A stretch of DNA of 64,000 nucleotides from Escherichia coli (GCF_044324875.1 NZ_CP172185.1), one strand, 5' to 3'; positions 44,082 through 52,114 are shown, counted from the first letter of the stretch. Numbers and translations: made by a program. Notes: generated by a model not told the origin, from the sequence alone.

Positions 44082-44157
44082 GCCCGGATAGCTCAGTCGG
44101 TAGAGCAGGGGATTGAAAATCCCCGTGTCCTTGGTTCGATTCCGAGTCCGGGCACCA
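44082..44157 (+). tRNA. pheU: tRNA-Phe (GAA)
   Basis: Exact 76-nt GCCCGGATAGCTCAGTCGGTAGAGCAGGGGATTGAAAATCCCCGTGTCCTTGGTTCGATTCCGAGTCCGGGCACCA. Confidence 0.97.
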
Positions 44158-44167
44158 AATTCATATA

Positions 44168-44196
44168 AACGGACCTCCACGGAGGTCCGTTTTTCG
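44168..44196 (+). terminator. pheU terminator hairpin
   Basis: CGGACCTCC-AC-GGAGGTCCG inverted repeat followed by TTTTTCGTTT directly after the tRNA. Confidence 0.7.
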
Positions 44197-44354
44197 TTTC
44201 AGGACGCCACGATTTAAGCGTCCTGCCGCCAAATCAATTCTACCGAACTCAACCAGACTCCCCCCACATCAACCCCATTGTGTGGGTATAATTGCGGGTA
44301 TACCCCAGTTCGACAGAATTTGTACCCTCTTTAACGCATTCAGAAGGCTGAACT

Positions 44355-45617
44355 ATGGCACTGACTGACGCAAAAATCCGGGCTGCAAAGCACACTGACA
44401 AGGCTTATAAACTCACTGACGGGGCTGGCATGTTCCTGCTGGTACATCCTAATGGTTCCCGTTACTGGCGTCTCCGTTATCGCATTCTGGGTAAGGAGAA
44501 AACTCTGGCACTTGGTGTATACCCGGAGGTTTCTCTCTCCGAAGCTCGTACAAAACGGGATGAGGCCCGAAAACTGATTTCGGAGGGGATTGACCCTTGC
44601 GAACAGAAAAGAGCTAAAAAAGTAGTCCCTGATTTACAACTCTCTTTTGAACATATTGCACGACGCTGGCATGCCAGTAATAAACAATGGGCACAATCAC
44701 ACAGCGATAAGGTACTCAAAAGCCTCGAAACACACGTTTTCCCCTTTATCGGCAACCGGAACATCACAACACTCAATACCCCGGACCTGCTTATCCCTGT
44801 TCGTGCTGCAGAAGCTAAACAAATTTATGAAATCGCCAGTCGTCTGCAGCAAAGAATATCTGCTGTAATGCGTTATGCCGTACAGTCTGGCATCATCAGA
44901 TATAATCCTGCTCTGGATATGGCTGGCGCATTGACCTCTGTAAAACGACAGCATCGCCCCGCTCTTGATCTTTCACGTCTGCCTGAACTTCTGTCGCGTA
45001 TTAACAGTTATAAAGGTCAGCCTGTCACCCGGCTTGCTGTTATGCTGAATTTACTGGTTTTTATTCGCTCCAGTGAACTCAGATATGCCCGCTGGGCTGA
45101 AATTGATATTGACAATTCAATGTGGACTATTCCAGCCGAACGCAAACCTCTGCCAGGGGTAAAATTCTCACACCGGGGCTCCAAGATGCGAACACCACAT
45201 CTTGTGCCACTCAGCAAACAGGCTGTAGCCATACTGACAGAACTTCAGACATGGGCTGGTGAAAATGGTCTGATCTTTACGGGAGCACATGACCCGCGTA
45301 AACCAATCAGTGAAAATACCGTAAATAAGGCCCTCAGAGTGATGGGGTATGACACAACCAAGGAAGTCTGTGGCCATGGATTCCGGGCGATGGCGTGCAG
45401 TGCATTGATTGAATCAGGTTTGTGGTCCCGCGATGCTGTGGAACGTCAGATGAGCCATCAGGAGCGTAATGGTGTACGTGCTGCGTATATCCATAAAGCA
45501 GAACATCTGGAAGAACGTCGACTGATGCTACAGTGGTGGGCAGATTTTCTGGATGCGAACAGAGATAAGGGTATCAGCCCGTTTGAATATGCAAAGATTA
45601 ACAATCCATTAAAATAG
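44355..45617 (+). CDS. P4-type tyrosine integrase
   Basis: 420-aa ORF; N-terminus MALTDAKIRAAKHTDKAYKLTDGAGMFLLVHPNGSRYWRLRYR (phage-integrase arm domain); C-terminus with HGFRAMACS and RAAYIH (R..H..R..Y catalytic signature); sits about 200 bp from the tRNA. Confidence 0.9.
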   Translation: MALTDAKIRAAKHTDKAYKLTDGAGMFLLVHPNGSRYWRLRYRILGKEKTLALGVYPEVSLSEARTKRDEARKLISEGIDPCEQKRAKKVVPDLQLSFEHIARRWHASNKQWAQSHSDKVLKSLETHVFPFIGNRNITTLNTPDLLIPVRAAEAKQIYEIASRLQQRISAVMRYAVQSGIIRYNPALDMAGALTSVKRQHRPALDLSRLPELLSRINSYKGQPVTRLAVMLNLLVFIRSSELRYARWAEIDIDNSMWTIPAERKPLPGVKFSHRGSKMRTPHLVPLSKQAVAILTELQTWAGENGLIFTGAHDPRKPISENTVNKALRVMGYDTTKEVCGHGFRAMACSALIESGLWSRDAVERQMSHQERNGVRAAYIHKAEHLEERRLMLQWWADFLDANRDKGISPFEYAKINNPLK

Positions 45618-45620
45618 TAA

Positions 45621-45650
45621 GCAGTCCGGGCTGATTGCCCGGACTGCTTT
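45621..45650 (+). terminator. Hairpin terminator after the integrase gene
   Basis: GCAGTCCGGG-CTGATTG-CCCGGACTGC stem-loop followed by TTTAACTGATTATTTTTC. Confidence 0.55.
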
Positions 45651-46068
45651 AACTGATTATTTTTCTTTGTAAATGATGACGAAGATTGATGTTCTGGCAA
45701 GTTACTCCGGCTTCCATTAAAGTCCCTTCGTCATGTTCTTCAGGCTATTTATGACTGTGATTAGCACCAGGAATATCTGGTTTCCATGAGAGCAGGTAAT
45801 AACCCCCGGTGTTTTCGGCTGTTCTGGTATCCTTGTCCAACGCAGGCAGTCATTATAAACGGTAAAAAATGTATTCACTGTTATGAAATCAATAGTCCTG
45901 ACGTACTGTTGAATGTGCTTGCGTTCTGAACCTTGTACAACCAGTACATTTGATACCGAATTATAAGCAAAACATTGCATCCAACTTTTTCAATATGGAC
46001 AATAGTTGTCCATATGGTGGTTTTATATTCGATAAATCAATGGATTTCATTGAGTCATAGGACTGGTA

Positions 46069-49000
46069 ATGGATGAAAATGCTTTAGGGTTTGCCTCATA
46101 CTGGCGCAACTCGCTTGCGGACGCTGAGTCAGGAAAGGGCAGTTTTGAACGGAAAGACGCCAAAAATTTCACTCACTGGCATGGGATAGCGGCGGGACGT
46201 CTTGACGAAGCGATTGTCAGTAAATTTTTTAAGGGAGAAAAAGACGATGTCGAAACGGTCGATGTCATCTTGCGCCCAAAAGTTTATTTCCGGTTACTGC
46301 AGCATGGTAAGGACCGTTCTGCAGGTGCGCCTGATATTGTTACCCCGATAGTGACGCCAGCCTTGCTAAGCCGTGAGGGTTTTTTATATCCGACGCCAGC
46401 GACCTCCATTCCCAGAGACCTGCTTGAACCTTTGCCAAAAGGAGCATTTTCGATTGGTGAGATTGGGCAGTATGACAAATACAAGACGACCCATACCACG
46501 TTCTCTATCAACTTTGATGACAGCGTTGATAAGACTGCCGAAACGGATGAAGAACGGGAAGAACGATATGCAGCCTTGCAGCAGGAGTGGCGTCAATATC
46601 TGGATGATTCAGAGAGGCTGCTGAAGAACGTTGCCGGCGACTGGATTAAAAATCCTGAGCAATATGAACTCGCTGAGCACGGTTATATTGTTAAAACGGC
46701 GCAATCTGGCGGTGCCAGTTTCCATATCCTTTCTCTTTATGATCACCTGCTTGTTTGCAATAAGGATGTGCCGCTCTTCAATCGATTCGCCTCGCGAGAG
46801 GTTCATGCTGCAGAGTCTTTGCTGGCCCCTGGAGCAAAATTCAGCGACAGGCTTGGACACTCCGGAGATAAGTTTCCGCTGGCAAAGGCTCAGCGCGATG
46901 CCTTAAGCCATTTTCTGGATGCTAAACATGGCGATATCCTTGCTGTTAATGGCCCTCCTGGAACCGGAAAAACCACGCTGGTGCTTTCTATCATCGCCAC
47001 GCAGTGGGCCAGAGCGGCTCTCGAAAAATCTGAGCCTCCGGTTATTATCGCGACTTCAACGAATAACCAGGCTGTAACGAACATTATTGAGGCATTCGGG
47101 AAAGACTTTTCGCAAGGTTCAGGTGCGATGGCCGGGCGATGGTTGCCAGAGCTGAAAAGCTTCGGCGCTTATTTTCCCTCAGGCAGCCGTAAAGCTGAAG
47201 CAGCCAAAAAATATCAAACTGAAGATTTCTTCAACCAGGTTGAGTCAAAAGAGTATGTAGAAGATGCACTGCTGTTTTATCTGGAAAAGGCTAAGGCAGC
47301 CTTTCCTGAAAAAGAGTGTTCATCCCCTGAAAAGGTCATTGAACTCCTGCATGGTCAGTTGGCAGCAAAATCCGAGCAACTGATAAGACTGAACGCAACA
47401 TGGCAAAAGTTAAGCCAGATTCGGGCTGCGCGTGAGCTTATTGCTAATGATATTGAGCAATATCTCAATAATTTAAATAAATTACTTTCCGGACAAGAAC
47501 AAAAAATCACTCTACTGAAGAGTGCTAAAACGGAATGGAAAAAATATCGCGCCGGTGAATCACTGATCTATTCATTATTTTCCTGGCTTCCGGCGGTTCG
47601 CAGTAAGCGACAGTACCAAATACAGCTGTTTCTCGAAGATAAATTAGGTGCGCTGATTGCAGGAAATCAATGGTCTGATCCTGAAACTATCGAACGTAAT
47701 ATTGATGGGCTGCTCAATTCCGCTGAGCGCGAGCAAACAACATACCGGCAGCAGATTGACTCCGCCCATGAAATCATTCTTAAAGAACAGCAGGCGGTTC
47801 AGGAGTGGCAGAGACTGGCTCTTGATTTAGGGTATGAGGGCGACGAGGAACTGAGCTTCTCACAGGCCGATGAACTGGCTGATACGCAGATTCGCTTCCC
47901 TGCATTTTTACTGACGACTCACTACTGGGAAGGTCGTTGGCTGATGGATATGGCCAGCATTGATGATCTGCAGGAAGAGAAGAAGAAAAAAGGCGCTAAA
48001 GGGGTAACCGCCCGTTGGCAACGTCGAATGAAACTCACTCCATGTGTGGTGATGACATGCTATATGCTGCCCGGCAATATGCAGATAAGTGAGCACAAAG
48101 GACAGCGTAAATTCGAGAAAAGTTATTTGTATGATTTTGCCGATTTACTCATTGTCGATGAAGCCGGGCAGGTGCTTCCTGAAGTGGCTGCTGCCTCGTT
48201 TGCATTAGCTAAGAAGGCATTAGTGATTGGCGATACGGAGCAGATCCCGCCAATATGGAGTATTGCTCCTGCGATTGATATCGGTAACATGCTGGCGGAA
48301 AAAATTCTGTCTGGCAGTACGCAAGAAGAGATTACCGAGAAATATACGGCAATCGCAGACCTTGGTAAAAGTGCCGCATCTGGCAGCGTTATGAAAATAG
48401 CGCAGTTTGCTTCGCGCTATCAATATGATCCCGAACTGGCTCGTGGTATGTACCTATATGAACACCGCCGGTGCTACGACAATATTATTGGATACTGTAA
48501 TACGCTCTGCTATCACGGTAAGTTGTTGCCTAAAAGAGGGCGTGAAGAGAGCAATTTAATGCCCGCAATGGGGTATCTCCATATTGATGGTAAAGGAGAG
48601 CTGGCAAGTAGTGGAAGTCGATATAATTTGCTTGAGGCTGAAACGATAGCGGTCTGGTTGGCAGAGAACCAGCAAAATATTGAAGCGCATTACGGTAAAT
48701 CGCTTCATGAAGTTGTCGGTATTGTGACGCCTTTTAGCGCTCAGGTATCCACTATCAAACAGGTGCTGGGCAAACAAGGTATCAGTACAGGCACGAATGA
48801 AAAGTCGCTCACAGTGGGCACCGTGCACTCTCTTCAGGGAGCGGAAAGAGCGATTGTGATATTCTCGCCAGTCTATTCAAAACATGAAGACGGCGGGTTT
48901 ATTGATAGCGATAACAGCATGCTGAATGTTGCAGTCTCCCGTGCGAAGGACAGTTTTCTGGTCTTCGGCGATATGGACCTGTTTGAGGTCCAGCCAGCCT

Positions 49001-49584
49001 CATCGCCACGGGGATTACTGGCAAAATACCTCTTTGAGTCAGAGAAGAATGCGCTCTCTTTTGATTATAAAGAGCGTAAGGATTTAAAAACCGCCGGGAC
49101 CAAAATCTACACACTTCATGGTGTGGAGCAACATGATAATTTCCTGAATCAGACATTTGAAAATACCAGTAAACACATCACGATAGTTTCTCCATGGCTG
49201 ACCTGGCAAAGGCTGGAGCAAACCGGTTTTCTTGATTCCATGATTGCGGCGTGTTCACGTGGAATTAACGTCACGATAGTCACTGACAGAAGCTACAACA
49301 CTGAACATAATGATTTTGAGAAGCGAAAAGAGAAGCAGCAGAACTTTAAAGCGGCGCTGGAGAAACTGAATGCGCTGGGTATTGCTACAAAGCTGGTAAA
49401 CCGTGTTCATAGCAAAATTGTTATTGGTGATGATGGTTTGCTGTGCGTGGGATCGTTCAACTGGTTTAGTGCGACACGGGAAGCGCGATATGAACGATAC
49501 GATACATCAATGGTTTATTGCGGTGATAACCTGAAGGGTGAGATTGAGGCTATTTATAATAGTCTTGAGAGGCGGCAGGTTTAG
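46069..49584 (+). CDS. Upf1-like SF1 helicase fused to a C-terminal PLD-family (single HKD) nuclease domain; candidate anti-phage defence protein with Mokosh type II-like architecture
   Basis: 1171-aa ORF. Walker [10 protein letters not shown] (aa 295-303, nt 46951-46977); Walker [10 protein letters not shown] (nt 48145-48171); helicase motifs [19 protein letters not shown] and [16 protein letters not shown] (nt 48814-48972); C-terminal HSKIVIGDD...GSFNW = H-x-K-x4-D...GSxN (nt 49408-49464). Located beside the island integrase. Confidence 0.8.
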
Positions 49585-49600
49585 AGCAGGAATGGTGAGT

Positions 49601-49637
49601 AGCCATCTTACCGATCGTTTTCGAGCGTAAGATGGCT
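49601..49637. other. 11-bp perfect inverted repeat between the convergent helicase-PLD and sulfatase-family genes
   Basis: AGCCATCTTAC ... GTAAGATGGCT with 15-nt loop; no adjacent T-run, so terminator function is uncertain. Confidence 0.35.
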
Positions 49638-49692
49638 GAATGGAATGGCTATTATTGCACAGTCCTTAATTATAACATTCATACCGACATGA

Positions 49693-51192
49693 TTATCTTC
49701 TGCCCGGAAGAATCAGAGGCTGTGGTTTCAGACTGTCTGCCGGTACATTCCTGTCTCCGTTAAAAACAATAACGGGTTCATTATCTTCGTCTGTCAGCGG
49801 ATTGAATGGCGGTATATTTTCAGTACGAATGCCGGTCAGCCACTGAAAAATACCTGCGAAATGACGGGCACTGATTTTTCTGCTGACGGACTGATGAGAC
49901 GTGATGTCACTGGCGGTAATAATCAGGGGAACGCTGTAGCCTCCTTGTATATGGCCATCATGATGAACAGGATTAGCACTGTCGCTGACCGACAGACCAT
50001 GGTCAGAAAAGTAAAGCATGGCAAAATGACGGGAGTGCCGGCGAAGGATACCATCAAGCTGACCGAGAAAGTTATCCAGTTTACTGATGCTGGCGAGGTA
50101 ACAGGCAATCTTTCGGGGATACTGCTCCAGGTAATGATTCGGCCAGGAGTTAAGTCGGTCACACGGATTCGGATGAGAGCCAATCATGTGCAGGAATATC
50201 ACCTTCGGAGAGGATTTATCCGCCAGTGCACGTTCTGTTTCCTGTAACAACAACATGTCATCCGTTTTACGGGAAGCAAAGCTGCCTTTCTTGAGGAAAA
50301 CGGTATGCTCCGCATCAGAAGCAATAACAGAGATGCGTGTATCATGCTCCCCCAGTTTTCCCTGATTGGATATCCACCATGTGCTGTATCCTGCTTTTGC
50401 TGCCAGCGCCACCACGTTGTTGCCGGAGTCAGGGTTCTGCTCATAGTCATAAATCAGTGTCCGGCTCAGGGAAGGTACGGTACTGGCTGCTGCCGATGTA
50501 TAGCCGTCAATAAATAAACCGGGAGCCGTATTCAGCCATGGTGTGGTTGGCACGGGATAGCCATATACCGACATATAATCCCTGCGCACACTCTCACCAG
50601 TAACGATAACAATCGTGTCATACAACGGTGTTCCCGGCAGGATTTTCCAGTTGTCAGCCCCGTGCTGACTCAGTTGTTTATAACGCTGCATTTCACGCAA
50701 TGTGTCAGTTGTTCCCACAACAATTCCTTTAACCATCCGCAACGGCCAGCTGTTTACAGAGCATAATACGAACAGCAGCAGTGCCAGCCAGTTACGGTGA
50801 CCGCGGTGGTGTGTCCGCCAGAAAATCACCATGAATACCAGAATCGCGGCACTGACCAGAAAATGATAAACAGGAATCATCCCGGTAAACTCTGCAGCCT
50901 CATCAGCCGTGGTCTGCAGCAACGCGACAATAAAACTGTTGTTGATTTTACCGTACGTCATACCCGCAGGCGCATACAGTGCACAACAGAACAGAAATAA
51001 CAGCGTTGTAATGGATGTGAGGGTATTTCTGTGTGCAAGGAGCAGAAGGAGAAACAGAAGCAGCACATTTCCTGTGGCATTCTTCTCAGTGTATCCGCAT
51101 GCAATTGTGGTTATCACAGAAATAACAAAAAAGAATAAAAACAATAAAATCCGGGGTGTGTCGCCCGGACAAAACAGTTTTCTGATATTCAT
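49693..51192 (-). CDS. Sulfatase-family inner-membrane protein (phosphoethanolamine-transferase-like)
   Basis: 499-aa ORF; N-terminal ~130 aa strongly hydrophobic (multiple TM helices), C-terminal domain with VTGESVRRDY and HMIGSHPNP motifs resembling EptA/OpgE/LtaS-type transferases. Confidence 0.7.
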   Translation of the reverse strand: MNIRKLFCPGDTPRILLFLFFFVISVITTIACGYTEKNATGNVLLLFLLLLLAHRNTLTSITTLLFLFCCALYAPAGMTYGKINNSFIVALLQTTADEAAEFTGMIPVYHFLVSAAILVFMVIFWRTHHRGHRNWLALLLFVLCSVNSWPLRMVKGIVVGTTDTLREMQRYKQLSQHGADNWKILPGTPLYDTIVIVTGESVRRDYMSVYGYPVPTTPWLNTAPGLFIDGYTSAAASTVPSLSRTLIYDYEQNPDSGNNVVALAAKAGYSTWWISNQGKLGEHDTRISVIASDAEHTVFLKKGSFASRKTDDMLLLQETERALADKSSPKVIFLHMIGSHPNPCDRLNSWPNHYLEQYPRKIACYLASISKLDNFLGQLDGILRRHSRHFAMLYFSDHGLSVSDSANPVHHDGHIQGGYSVPLIITASDITSHQSVSRKISARHFAGIFQWLTGIRTENIPPFNPLTDEDNEPVIVFNGDRNVPADSLKPQPLILPGRR

Positions 51193-51373
51193 CGGAGTAT
51201 ATCGACAACATTATTATGAAGAGAACAGGATAATAAAAATCAGAAATTATCTGTAAAACAGATAACAGACAACCCTGCAGCAATAGACTGCAGGGTGTTT
51301 CTGTTTAATTGCAGAAGATATACAATTATATTAATTACAGAATATTCGTGATTATCTCTCGGGAACAGTGTTG

Positions 51374-52114
51374 TCAGAAGTTATAAGTCACACCAAGCAT
51401 GATGTCATGACTTTTAACATCAACTTCTGACTTATATTTATCGCCCCACTCGTCCTTGTAACTCACACTGCTGTCACCTGCATCAAGATAGCGATAGCTG
51501 AGGTCCAGAGCGATATCCGGGGTTACGTCATAGCGGACACCCGCGCCAAGGTTCCATGCGAAGTTGTCAGCAGAGCCTGAACGTGACAACGATTCGCGAC
51601 CACTGCTTCCGTACTCATAATCCCAGGTACTGATACCGGTTGTTTTCTGGTGAATTCTGGCGTAGCCAATCCCTGCAGATATCCAAGGTGTGAATGCGCT
51701 GTCATTCCGGAAGTCATAGTACGCATTCAGCATTAGTGTGTTGACTGACACCTCATTCTTCAGGTCATCACGCCAGTAACCACCTGACCAACTGTCTTTA
51801 TCTACGTTATACTTCGAATCAGCTTTTCCACGAGCGTAAAACTCCAGTTCTGTACGAACCGGAATACTGAACTGCGGATAAAAATCATAACCAGCCGCGA
51901 TACCACCACTGAATACCGTATCATGGTCATCGCCGCCTTTATACTTTGACGTTTCTTCCTCATCTCCTGACAGGAAACGCTGGTCTGAAAGTGACACCAC
52001 AGAGGTACCGGCTTTACCGGTCAGATAAAAACCGCTTTTACCTTCCTCAGCACCTGCATTTGCTGCAAATACACAGGCTGCGGCCACCACTGAAACAGCA
52101 AAAACCTTTTTCAT
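51374..52114 (-). CDS. Outer-membrane beta-barrel protein (Opa/Ail/OmpA-like)
   Basis: 246-aa ORF with signal peptide MKKVFAVSVVAAACVFAANAGA, alternating amphipathic strands rich in Y/G/D, and C-terminal ...GVTYNF (terminal Phe typical of OM beta-barrels). Confidence 0.7.
   Translation of the reverse strand: MKKVFAVSVVAAACVFAANAGAEEGKSGFYLTGKAGTSVVSLSDQRFLSGDEEETSKYKGGDDHDTVFSGGIAAGYDFYPQFSIPVRTELEFYARGKADSKYNVDKDSWSGGYWRDDLKNEVSVNTLMLNAYYDFRNDSAFTPWISAGIGYARIHQKTTGISTWDYEYGSSGRESLSRSGSADNFAWNLGAGVRYDVTPDIALDLSYRYLDAGDSSVSYKDEWGDKYKSEVDVKSHDIMLGVTYNF

What the first reader, a model, noticed from the sequence alone, without database searches (positions are those of the whole stretch)
46069..46950. 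About 290-aa N-terminal domain of the helicase-PLD protein with no recognisable motif
Everything upstream of the Walker A motif (aa 1-294) shows no catalytic signature I can recognise; it is moderately acidic with scattered aromatic residues. In defence helicases such N-terminal extensions often act as sensor or regulatory modules, so this may be the specificity-determining, least conserved part of the protein.
Basis: inference. Interest (0 to 1): 0.5.

Follow-up and report, generated by a model that had tools for sequence, protein, structure and literature searches.

The report
Uncharacterised N-terminal module of Mokosh II
The flagged stretch is the first ~265 residues of MkoC, the known single-protein Mokosh type II anti-phage helicase-nuclease of E. 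coli. It is a real, well-folded, family-conserved accessory module with no known structural relative, and it is not a hypervariable specificity region.

Summary
Window 46069-46950 encodes aa 1-294 of a 1171-aa ORF, Walker A starts at aa 295, and nothing in Pfam, NCBIfam, PHROGs or the PDB matches the upstream part.

The protein is MkoC, the Mokosh type II defence protein (PADLOC E=0, full length). It sits alone next to a P4-type integrase at tRNA-Phe and is present in 888 of 5426 complete E. coli genomes.

It is conserved across at least 394 clusters at 50% identity, with invariant R116, P121, W174 and Y224. It is under purifying selection (dN/dS 0.28), and it is no more variable than the helical insertion or the PLD domain. 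The "sensor, least conserved" reading is therefore only partly supported.

My best inference is a family-specific counterpart of the stalk/1B accessory region of Upf1-like helicases, gating substrate and nuclease activity. The mechanism is unproven.

The parts
46069..49584 (+). mkoC, 1171-aa Mokosh type II helicase-PLD defence protein (131.5 kDa)
   Evidence: PADLOC MkoC PDLC03924, E=0, 1694 bits, aa 1-1169 against profile 1-1135/1136. Pfam AAA_11, AAA_12 and PLDc_2. RefSeq WP_021572001.1, annotated 'AAA domain-containing protein'. Molecular weight.
46069..46866 (+). N-terminal accessory module, aa 1-266 (the finding, trimmed to its real boundary)
   Evidence: No Pfam, NCBIfam, PHROGs or PDB match. 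On its own it hits only the MkoC model in PADLOC (317 bits). AF2 model pLDDT 87.7, pTM 0.76.
46069..46491 (+). Subdomain N1, aa 1-141: conserved N-terminal helix (YWRNSLAD, aa 11-18) followed by a beta-rich alpha/beta unit carrying the RDLLEP motif (aa 116-121)
   Evidence: Secondary structure H3-20, E63-69, E73-75, E95-101, E105-108, H132-141. Y11, D18, G24, F54, G104, R116, L119 and P121 are invariant in 52 sequences. Encoded as a separate 148-aa ORF in the L006 allele.
46492..46584 (+). Variable acidic loop, aa 142-172 ([19 protein letters not shown]...)
   Evidence: Length 10-37 aa and net negative charge in 94% of 52 homologues. Alignment occupancy 0.66 and 12% identity. dN/dS 0.68. Lowest pLDDT of the module in the full-length model. 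Site of the in-frame TGA in L006.
46585..46866 (+). Subdomain N2, aa 173-266: end of the 35-residue helix (aa 160-194, invariant W174), a beta-hairpin (aa 199-209), helices carrying the LYD motif (aa 223-225), and the RLGHS motif (aa 261-265)
   Evidence: secondary structure; W174 and Y224 invariant; L223, L236, R261 and H264 at >=90%.
46867..46950 (+). Q-motif helix and first beta-strand of RecA1, aa 267-294: helicase core, not part of the accessory module
   Evidence: L271, Q275 and N294 are invariant. This stretch aligns to the Sen1-like helicase 8ftm and to DNA2 (5eax) upstream of their Walker A motifs. Pfam AAA_11 starts at aa 272.
46951..46974 (+). Walker A motif GPPGTGKT, aa 295-302
   Evidence: invariant in the family.
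47248..48036 (+). All-helical insertion in RecA1, aa 394-656, at the position of domain 1C of Upf1-like helicases
   Evidence: AAA_11 is split into aa 272-492 and 679-729. Long helices H420-458, H462-495, H538-586 and H597-629. This is the least conserved part, 12-17% identity in aa 451-600, but it has a conserved block at aa 601-630.
48157..48171 (+). Walker B / motif II DEAGQ, aa 697-701
48394..49023 (+). RecA2 domain, aa 776-985
   Evidence: AAA_12 at aa 777-969, E=2e-21. Matches Upf1, Sen1, DNA2 and IGHMBP2.
49102..49581 (+). C-terminal PLD nuclease domain, aa 1012-1171, with a single HKD motif (HSKIVIGD, aa 1114-1121, nt 49408-49431)
   Evidence: PLDc_2 at aa 1028-1138. One HxK(x4)D motif only. 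The family profile matches Nuc (1byr) and NucT.
44082..44157 (+). tRNA-Phe, the integration site of the islet
   Evidence: ARAGORN; RefSeq annotation.
44355..45617 (+). Tyrosine integrase of the islet that carries mkoC
   Evidence: ORF; RefSeq annotation 'tyrosine-type recombinase/integrase'.

Best explanation
The region is the N-terminal accessory module (aa 1-266) of MkoC, the single-polypeptide Mokosh type II anti-phage protein. MkoC is an Upf1-like SF1B helicase with a giant helical insertion and a C-terminal single-HKD PLD nuclease.

The module is an integral, family-specific part of the helicase rather than an exchangeable sensor cassette. It has three parts: a conserved N-terminal helix plus a beta-rich subdomain (N1), a variable acidic loop, and a helical subdomain (N2) that leads directly into the Q motif.

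It occupies the sequence position where Upf1, IGHMBP2, Sen1 and DNA2 carry their stalk helices and 1B domain, but it has a different fold with no characterised relative.

Most likely mode of action (inferred): it packs on RecA1 at the leading (3') side of the 5'->3' motor. There it helps to bind or gate the nucleic-acid substrate and couples substrate engagement to ATPase activity and to the trailing PLD nuclease. A PLD domain with a single HKD motif can only form an active site by pairing with a second copy.

Shown: the identity of the protein, the domain boundaries, the confident fold, family-wide conservation, purifying selection, and the absence of known relatives. Inferred: the position on the motor, the substrate-gating role and the link to nuclease licensing.
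For: Identity: full-length MkoC match, with the N-terminus alone scoring 317 bits against MkoC only. The calculated 131.5 kDa matches the 132-kDa monomeric EcMokosh II reported in bioRxiv 10.1101/2025.07.10.664194.

Integral to the family: the exhaustive HMMER search gave 394 clusters at E<=1e-3. Every listed hit of >=850 aa carries the N-module followed collinearly by RecA1, insertion and RecA2. Foldseek against AFDB50 gave 133 hits at E<=1e-3; the top 50 are all helicase-PLD proteins or fragments of them, from Proteobacteria, Paenibacillus/Brevibacillus and Parabacteroides. The key motifs persist in a Bacteroidota-like homologue at 25% identity.

Folded and constrained: pLDDT 87.7 and pTM 0.76 for the module alone. 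Full length gives pLDDT 89.4 and pTM 0.85 with the same secondary structure. There are invariant and near-invariant residues, and dN/dS is 0.275.

Nuclease licensing: there is a single HKD motif, the family profile matches Nuc and NucT, and the protein is a monomer in solution.
Against: No atomic coordinates were available to me. Contacts between the module, RecA1, the insertion and the PLD domain were therefore not examined, and its placement on the leading edge rests only on family knowledge.

The module is net acidic, which does not favour a simple nucleic-acid-binding surface.

No experiment on this domain exists in the searched literature.
Confidence: 0.5

Rival explanations
1. Phage-sensor or specificity module. 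The N-terminal module directly recognises a phage protein or a phage-specific nucleic-acid feature, and so determines which phages MkoC restricts.
For: Defence by Mokosh II is narrow: only the ssDNA phage SECphi17 in one panel. The module is less conserved than the RecA cores, 29% against 53-60% identity. It shows slightly higher polymorphism and dN/dS than the gene average. It has no housekeeping relatives.
Against: There is no hypervariability: dN/dS is 0.275. The module is no more variable than the insertion or the PLD domain. It has many invariant residues. No module swapping or loss was seen in the family. The helical insertion is the more variable surface.
Confidence: 0.2
2. Autoinhibition or dimerisation switch. 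The module, possibly through its acidic loop acting as a nucleic-acid mimic, holds the monomer in an off state, or mediates the trigger-dependent pairing of two MkoC molecules that is needed to build a two-HKD active site.
For: There is a single HKD motif. The PLD domain resembles Nuc and NucT; that these single-HKD nucleases act as dimers is established knowledge, not tested here. EcMokosh II is monomeric in solution. The loop conserves negative charge while varying in sequence and length. High pTM (0.85) points to a compact, fixed interdomain arrangement.
Against: The interface was not analysed. The loop evolves nearly neutrally (dN/dS 0.68) and tolerates an in-frame stop in one lineage. Both facts fit a passive linker equally well.
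Confidence: 0.2
3. A highly diverged but truly homologous version of the canonical stalk plus 1B beta-barrel of Upf1-like helicases. In that case it is a standard helicase accessory domain and nothing special.
Confidence: 0.15
4. A cryptic enzymatic domain, for example a second nuclease or a nucleotide-modifying activity, that uses the conserved H79, R102, R116, D117, D136, D225, R261 and H264.
For: Several invariant or near-invariant polar residues.
Against: No match to any catalytic family by sequence or fold. Conserved residues are spread over both subdomains and include many G, P and aromatic positions typical of a structural core. According to Millman et al., defence is abolished by helicase and PLD mutations alone.
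Confidence: 0.05

Closest known systems
MkoC, Mokosh type II (Millman et al. 2022; PADLOC PDLC03924; EcMokosh II of bioRxiv 10.1101/2025.07.10.664194)
   Same: Full-length, collinear match that includes the N-terminal module. Same size, 131.5 kDa against the reported 132 kDa. Same architecture: Upf1-like helicase followed by a PLD domain. Stand-alone gene on a mobile islet.
   Different: Nothing detectable; this is a member. Published descriptions call the N-terminal part simply 'RNA helicase' and do not separate or annotate aa 1-266.
Stalk and 1B accessory region of Upf1-like SF1B helicases (Upf1, IGHMBP2, Sen1, DNA2)
   Same: Lies immediately N-terminal to the Q motif and RecA1. Similar order of a helix, a beta-rich unit and a long helix. 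It belongs to the same helicase family by its core motifs.
MkoA of Mokosh type I
   Same: Related Upf1-like helicase core (PADLOC MkoA hits at aa 692-994). Works with a PLD nuclease.
   Different: In MkoA the helicase is C-terminal and is preceded by other domains, a Ser/Thr kinase according to Millman et al.. The MkoC N-module does not hit the MkoA models.
DNA2 and other helicase-nuclease fusions of defence (Hachiman HamAB, Upx, Nhi)
   Same: An SF1/SF2 motor coupled to a nuclease, with accessory domains that regulate the nuclease. The DNA2 helicase core is a sequence relative.

Membership tests
Mokosh type II (MkoC) | Full-length match to the MkoC family model | tested here: met
   PADLOC PDLC03924, E=0, 1694 bits, aa 1-1169 against 1-1135 of 1136.
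Mokosh type II (MkoC) | Upf1-like (COG1112, AAA_11/AAA_12) SF1 helicase with intact Walker A and B | tested here: met
   AAA_11 and AAA_12; GPPGTGKT at aa 295 and DEAGQ at aa 697; PDB relatives Upf1, Sen1, DNA2 and IGHMBP2.
Mokosh type II (MkoC) | C-terminal PLD nuclease domain with an HKD motif in the same polypeptide | tested here: met
   PLDc_2 at aa 1028-1138; HSKIVIGD at aa 1114-1121.
Mokosh type II (MkoC) | Single-gene system in a mobile or defence context | tested here: met
   The gene lies alone between an integrase at tRNA-Phe and unrelated genes. Neighbours differ among distant homologues.
Mokosh type II (MkoC) | Protects against phage, dependent on the helicase and PLD active sites | not testable with these tools
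   Literature only: Millman et al. and the nuclease-NTPase preprint, which reports defence against SECphi17. Exact sequence identity to the tested clone was not verified.
Canonical stalk/1B accessory domain of Upf1-like helicases | Located directly upstream of the Q motif and RecA1 | tested here: met
   Q motif at aa 271-276. Alignments to solved helicases start there.
Canonical stalk/1B accessory domain of Upf1-like helicases | Beta-barrel 1B fold superposable on Upf1, IGHMBP2, Sen1 or DNA2 | tested here: not met
Canonical stalk/1B accessory domain of Upf1-like helicases | Sequence or profile similarity to that region | tested here: not met
   A profile of 52 N-termini gives 0 PDB hits at E<=10. 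The full-length profile aligns only from the Q motif onwards.
Hypervariable specificity or sensor module of a defence protein | Clearly higher variability than the rest of the protein | tested here: not met
   Identity is 29%, against 28% for the insertion and 33% for the PLD domain. Diversity among close alleles is 4.5% against 3.6% overall.
Hypervariable specificity or sensor module of a defence protein | Diversifying selection (dN/dS near or above 1) or modular exchange among homologues | tested here: not met
   dN/dS is 0.275, and only the 31-aa loop reaches 0.68 (nine alleles, region averages only, no site-wise test). No alternative N-termini among the representatives.
Hypervariable specificity or sensor module of a defence protein | Binds a phage-derived trigger | not testable with these tools
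   No data.

The most novel reading that the evidence does not exclude
The aa 1-266 module is a previously undescribed protein fold, restricted to MkoC. It acts as the infection sensor or licensing switch of Mokosh II. In this reading it recognises a feature of phage replication intermediates, for example the ends or structures of rolling-circle ssDNA, at the leading edge of the helicase. It then releases or promotes the pairing of two single-HKD PLD domains so that the nuclease fires only on phage nucleic acid.
Probability: 0.15. Interest if true: 0.6.

Novelty: already known. Interest (0 to 1): 0.3.

Why it matters
Mokosh is among the more common recently described defence systems. This gene is in 16% of complete E. 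coli genomes. It has been linked by domain homology to the animal piRNA factors MOV10L1 and PLD6.

I found no mechanism for Mokosh in the literature I searched. Nearly a quarter of MkoC (aa 1-266) is a conserved, confidently folded module that no database annotates and that published domain schemes fold into "helicase".

Defining its boundaries, subdomains and invariant residues (Y11, W12, R13, D18, R116, D117, P121, W174, Y224, R261, H264) gives concrete targets for mutagenesis and structural work. Showing that it is not hypervariable redirects the search for specificity determinants, for instance towards the much more variable helical insertion. For the genome scan itself the finding is ordinary: a known system with an unannotated domain.

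Tried and rejected
1. Sequence annotation of aa 1-294. Pfam on the query and on 52 homologues, NCBIfam, PHROGs, PADLOC at E<=10, and a PDB profile search gave nothing except MkoC itself.

3. PLD-less relatives as evidence for a split system: rejected. One is truncated by an ISL3 insertion.

4. N1-less relatives as evidence for modularity: rejected. L006 has an in-frame TGA in the acidic loop, and L008 is frameshifted with N1 coded upstream.

5. An "aminotransferase fusion" hit (P0065) is a deletion remnant that ends at the Walker A motif.

6. A search of viral contigs for the N-module found no relative. Of the two 'phage' GenBank hits, one is a short unannotated 4-kb Salmonella record that I did not examine. 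The other is probably a Bacteroidota contig labelled as phage.

7. Interdomain contacts could not be analysed, because model coordinates and PAE are not exposed.

8. Literature searches found no study of the MkoC N-terminus and no Mokosh mechanism or structure.

Full report
**What is there.** The window is an E. coli chromosome segment: aspA-dcuA-cutA-dsbD-dicD, then tRNA-Phe. Directly after tRNA-Phe (44082-44157) lie a tyrosine integrase (44355-45617) and a 1171-aa ORF (46069-49584, + strand). A phosphoethanolamine transferase and an outer-membrane protein follow on the other strand.

The finding covers 46069-46950, which is aa 1-294 of the large ORF. The only Walker A motif (GPPGTGKT) is at aa 295-302, Walker B (DEAGQ) is at aa 697, and a single HKD motif (HSKIVIGD) is at aa 1114-1121.

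**Identity of the protein.** PADLOC gives a full-length match to MkoC, the Mokosh type II defence protein: E=0, 1694 bits, aa 1-1169 against 1-1135 of 1136 profile positions.
- Pfam sees AAA_11 (aa 272-492 and 679-729, so split by an insertion), AAA_12 (aa 777-969) and PLDc_2 (aa 1028-1138), and nothing in aa 1-270.
- The closest solved structures by sequence are Upf1, a Sen1-like helicase, Sen1, DNA2 and IGHMBP2, plus Nuc and NucT for the PLD part.
- The calculated mass is 131.5 kDa. This equals the 132-kDa monomeric "EcMokosh II" studied in bioRxiv 10.1101/2025.07.10.664194, which defended only against the ssDNA phage SECphi17 in that panel.
- Millman et al. [quoted passage not shown] They report that helicase and PLD mutations abolish defence.
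- The gene is in 888 of 5426 complete E. coli genomes, always on the chromosome.

**Is the N-terminal region unannotated?** Yes. NCBIfam, PHROGs and Pfam give nothing for the query or for any of 52 homologous N-termini. A profile of these 52 sequences finds no PDB chain even at E<=10. Alone, the region hits only the MkoC model in PADLOC (317 bits) and not MkoA.

The real boundary is about aa 266. Residues 267-294 ([10 protein letters not shown]...ILAVN) are the Q-motif helix and first strand of RecA1. They align to the Sen1-like helicase 8ftm and to DNA2, and they contain the invariant L271, Q275 and N294.

**Structure.** An alignment of 52 N-termini (A2) gave an AlphaFold2 model of aa 1-288 with mean pLDDT 87.7 and pTM 0.76. 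A 46-sequence full-length alignment (A1) gave pLDDT 89.4 and pTM 0.85, with the same secondary structure in the N-terminus. The module has three parts:
- N1 (aa 1-141): an 18-residue helix carrying the near-invariant YWRNSLAD motif, followed by a beta-rich alpha/beta unit with the RDLLEP motif.
- A loop (aa 142-172) of variable length (10-37 aa) that is net negative in 94% of homologues.
- N2 (aa 173-266): the end of a 35-residue helix (aa 160-194, invariant W174), a beta-hairpin, short helices with the LYD motif (invariant Y224), and RLGHS just before the Q motif.

Foldseek against AFDB50 gave 133 hits at E<=1e-3. All 50 shown are helicase-PLD proteins or fragments of them, from alpha-, beta- and gamma-proteobacteria, Paenibacillus/Brevibacillus and Parabacteroides. 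The fold is confidently predicted, has no characterised relative, and was found only in this family.

**Conservation.** An exhaustive HMMER search of 1.84 billion representatives with aa 1-294 found 394 clusters at E<=1e-3 and 208 at E<=1e-10. The listed full-length hits are almost all 1100-1280 aa, with the match at their N-terminus. Every representative of >=850 aa has the N-module followed collinearly by RecA1, insertion and RecA2.

Mean identity to the query over 45 full-length homologues:

| Region | Identity |
|---|---|
| aa 1-270 (N-module) | 29% |
| aa 1-140 | 35% |
| aa 141-270 | 23% |
| aa 151-180 | 12% |
| RecA cores | 53-60% |
| Helical insertion aa 391-680 | 28% |
| aa 451-600 within the insertion | 12-17% |
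| PLD domain | 33% |

R116, P121, W174 and Y224 are invariant. Y11, D18, G43, F54, P70, G104, L119, L223, L236, R261 and H264 are conserved at >=90%.

Among 37 distinct close alleles (>=90% identical), mean pairwise amino-acid difference is 4.5% in the N-module against 3.6% overall, and 13% in aa 142-159.

Nei-Gojobori dN/dS over nine E. coli alleles:

| Region | dN/dS |
|---|---|
| aa 1-266 (whole module) | 0.275 |
| N1 | 0.26 |
| Acidic loop | 0.68 |
| N2 | 0.20 |
| RecA1a | 0.06 |
| Insertion | 0.21 |
| RecA2 | 0.12 |
| Linker plus PLD | 0.19 |
| Whole gene | 0.17 |

The module is under purifying selection, only mildly relaxed relative to the cores, and it is not the most variable part of the protein.

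**Apparent architectural variants are decay products.**
- Representatives "without N1": one is an allele with a single in-frame TGA in the acidic loop, seen on 10 contigs on a conjugative element; N1 is the 148-aa upstream ORF, 45% identical to the query. The other is frameshifted, with N1 coded just upstream.
- A hit annotated as aminotransferase is a remnant fused at the Walker A motif.
- A homologue at 25% identity in a contig labelled "Bacteriophage sp.", probably Bacteroidota, keeps the YWKN..LD, W..Y and LYD motifs.
- No case of the module in another protein context was seen. Hits ranked 151-394 and 51-133 were not visible to me.

**How it most likely works.** The following is established for the family, not tested here. 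Upf1-like SF1B helicases carry, between their N-terminus and the Q motif, two stalk helices and a 1B domain that sit on RecA1. They also carry a 1C insertion within RecA1. These accessory domains contact the nucleic acid on the 3' (leading) side of the 5'->3' motor and regulate activity. Single-HKD PLD nucleases such as Nuc act as dimers.

In MkoC the unannotated module occupies the stalk/1B position, and the 263-residue helical insertion occupies the 1C position. The PLD domain follows RecA2 and so sits on the trailing side.

My best inference (confidence about 0.5 overall: high for identity, about 0.4 for mechanism) is this. The module is a family-specific replacement of the stalk/1B accessory region. 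It helps to bind or gate the substrate at the front of the motor, and it couples engagement to ATPase activity and to licensing of a nuclease that is inactive in the monomer.

The rivals are a direct phage sensor (0.2), an autoinhibition or dimerisation switch using the acidic loop (0.2, and compatible with the main model), a true but very diverged 1B/stalk homologue (0.15), and a cryptic enzyme (0.05). I could not discriminate further because coordinates and PAE of the models are not exposed.

**Comparison with what is known, and novelty.** The protein is a member of MkoC; every sequence-level defining feature I could test was met. The N-module is not a recognisable member of the canonical 1B/stalk family: the fold and sequence tests were not met, although it sits in the same place. 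It does not match MkoA, whose helicase is preceded by a kinase domain according to Millman et al..

The literature I could search contains no analysis of this region and no Mokosh structure or mechanism. The system is therefore already known. What is unknown is the role of a conserved quarter of it.

**Verdict.** The region is an uncharacterised accessory module of a defence helicase, possibly regulatory, but it is conserved and integral rather than hypervariable or specificity-determining. Interest is modest (0.3): it is useful for anyone working on Mokosh, but not surprising.

Noticed in passing
window 45993-46015: Perfect 10-nt inverted repeat ATATGGACAA-tag-TTGTCCATAT, 53 nt upstream of the mkoC start codon. 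It looks like an operator; the terminator scan also flags it because of a following T-rich run. It may be a regulatory site for mkoC expression. Its conservation in other alleles was not checked.
   Followed up: partly
window 47248-48036 (aa 394-656): A 263-residue all-helical insertion splits RecA1, with helices of 33-49 residues. It is the least conserved part of MkoC (12-17% identity in aa 451-600), yet it contains a strongly conserved block at aa 601-630 (R609, H618, Y619, E621 and W624 invariant). It is a better candidate than the N-terminus for a variable, specificity-related surface.
   Followed up: partly
L006 3530-7012 (ENA ERZ795059 NODE_434; also L007): An MkoC allele on a conjugative element (relaxase, TraX, PIN toxin and methyltransferases nearby). 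It is interrupted by one in-frame TGA inside the acidic loop, giving a 148-aa N1 ORF and a 1003-aa remainder that starts at a GTG 24 nt later. It is present on 10 contigs. It is either a pseudogene or a tolerated natural split at the subdomain boundary.
   Followed up: partly
L002 5322-10613: A 993-aa MkoC homologue is truncated just before its PLD domain by an ISL3 transposase insertion. Immediately upstream lie an ART-PolyVal (ADP-ribosyltransferase) gene and an 899-aa protein with no Pfam match; a HepT/nucleotidyltransferase toxin-antitoxin pair lies downstream. This looks like a defence island.
   Followed up: no
L004 3664-9366: A 771-aa DEAD/ResIII/Helicase_C gene ends 22 nt before a 1121-aa MkoC-like gene that lacks a detectable PLD domain. 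The contig ends about 370 nt after it, so whether a PLD gene follows is unknown. It could be a two-helicase variant.
   Followed up: no
window 46069-49584 compared with L010-L017: Synonymous divergence among nine E. coli mkoC alleles differs about four-fold between segments: dS is 0.035 in aa 657-775 and 0.136 in aa 267-393. This suggests intragenic recombination and mosaic alleles.
   Followed up: no
window 44082-52114: mkoC sits in a small islet at tRNA-Phe (pheU) with a P4-type integrase. It is followed by a phosphoethanolamine transferase and an outer-membrane protein on the opposite strand. GC is about 46-47% across 44-52 kb, against 51-57% in most flanking windows. The 5.7-kb integrase-mkoC segment is found at >=80% coverage in 607 of 5426 complete E. 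coli genomes. The right-hand end of the island was not determined.
   Followed up: partly
hits H75 and H80 (E. coli AR_0118 and SRY157): Some E. coli strains carry disrupted copies of mkoC. One has an IS1 insertion that splits the gene in two. Another has only 76% of the gene, lying next to gspM.
   Followed up: no
L009 (GenBank MT837470.1, 'Bacteriophage sp.', 6.8 kb): This record in the phage collection carries a PhoH-like gene and a 1088-aa distant MkoC homologue, and no obvious phage genes. It is probably a bacterial (Bacteroidota-like) contig mislabelled as viral.
   Followed up: partly
P0065 (Vibrio sp., 469 aa, partial): Chimeric ORF. The last ~100 residues of the MkoC N-module, up to 'AVNGPS' at the Walker A position, are fused in frame to a class I/II aminotransferase. 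It is a deletion remnant of mkoC, not a new architecture.
   Followed up: yes
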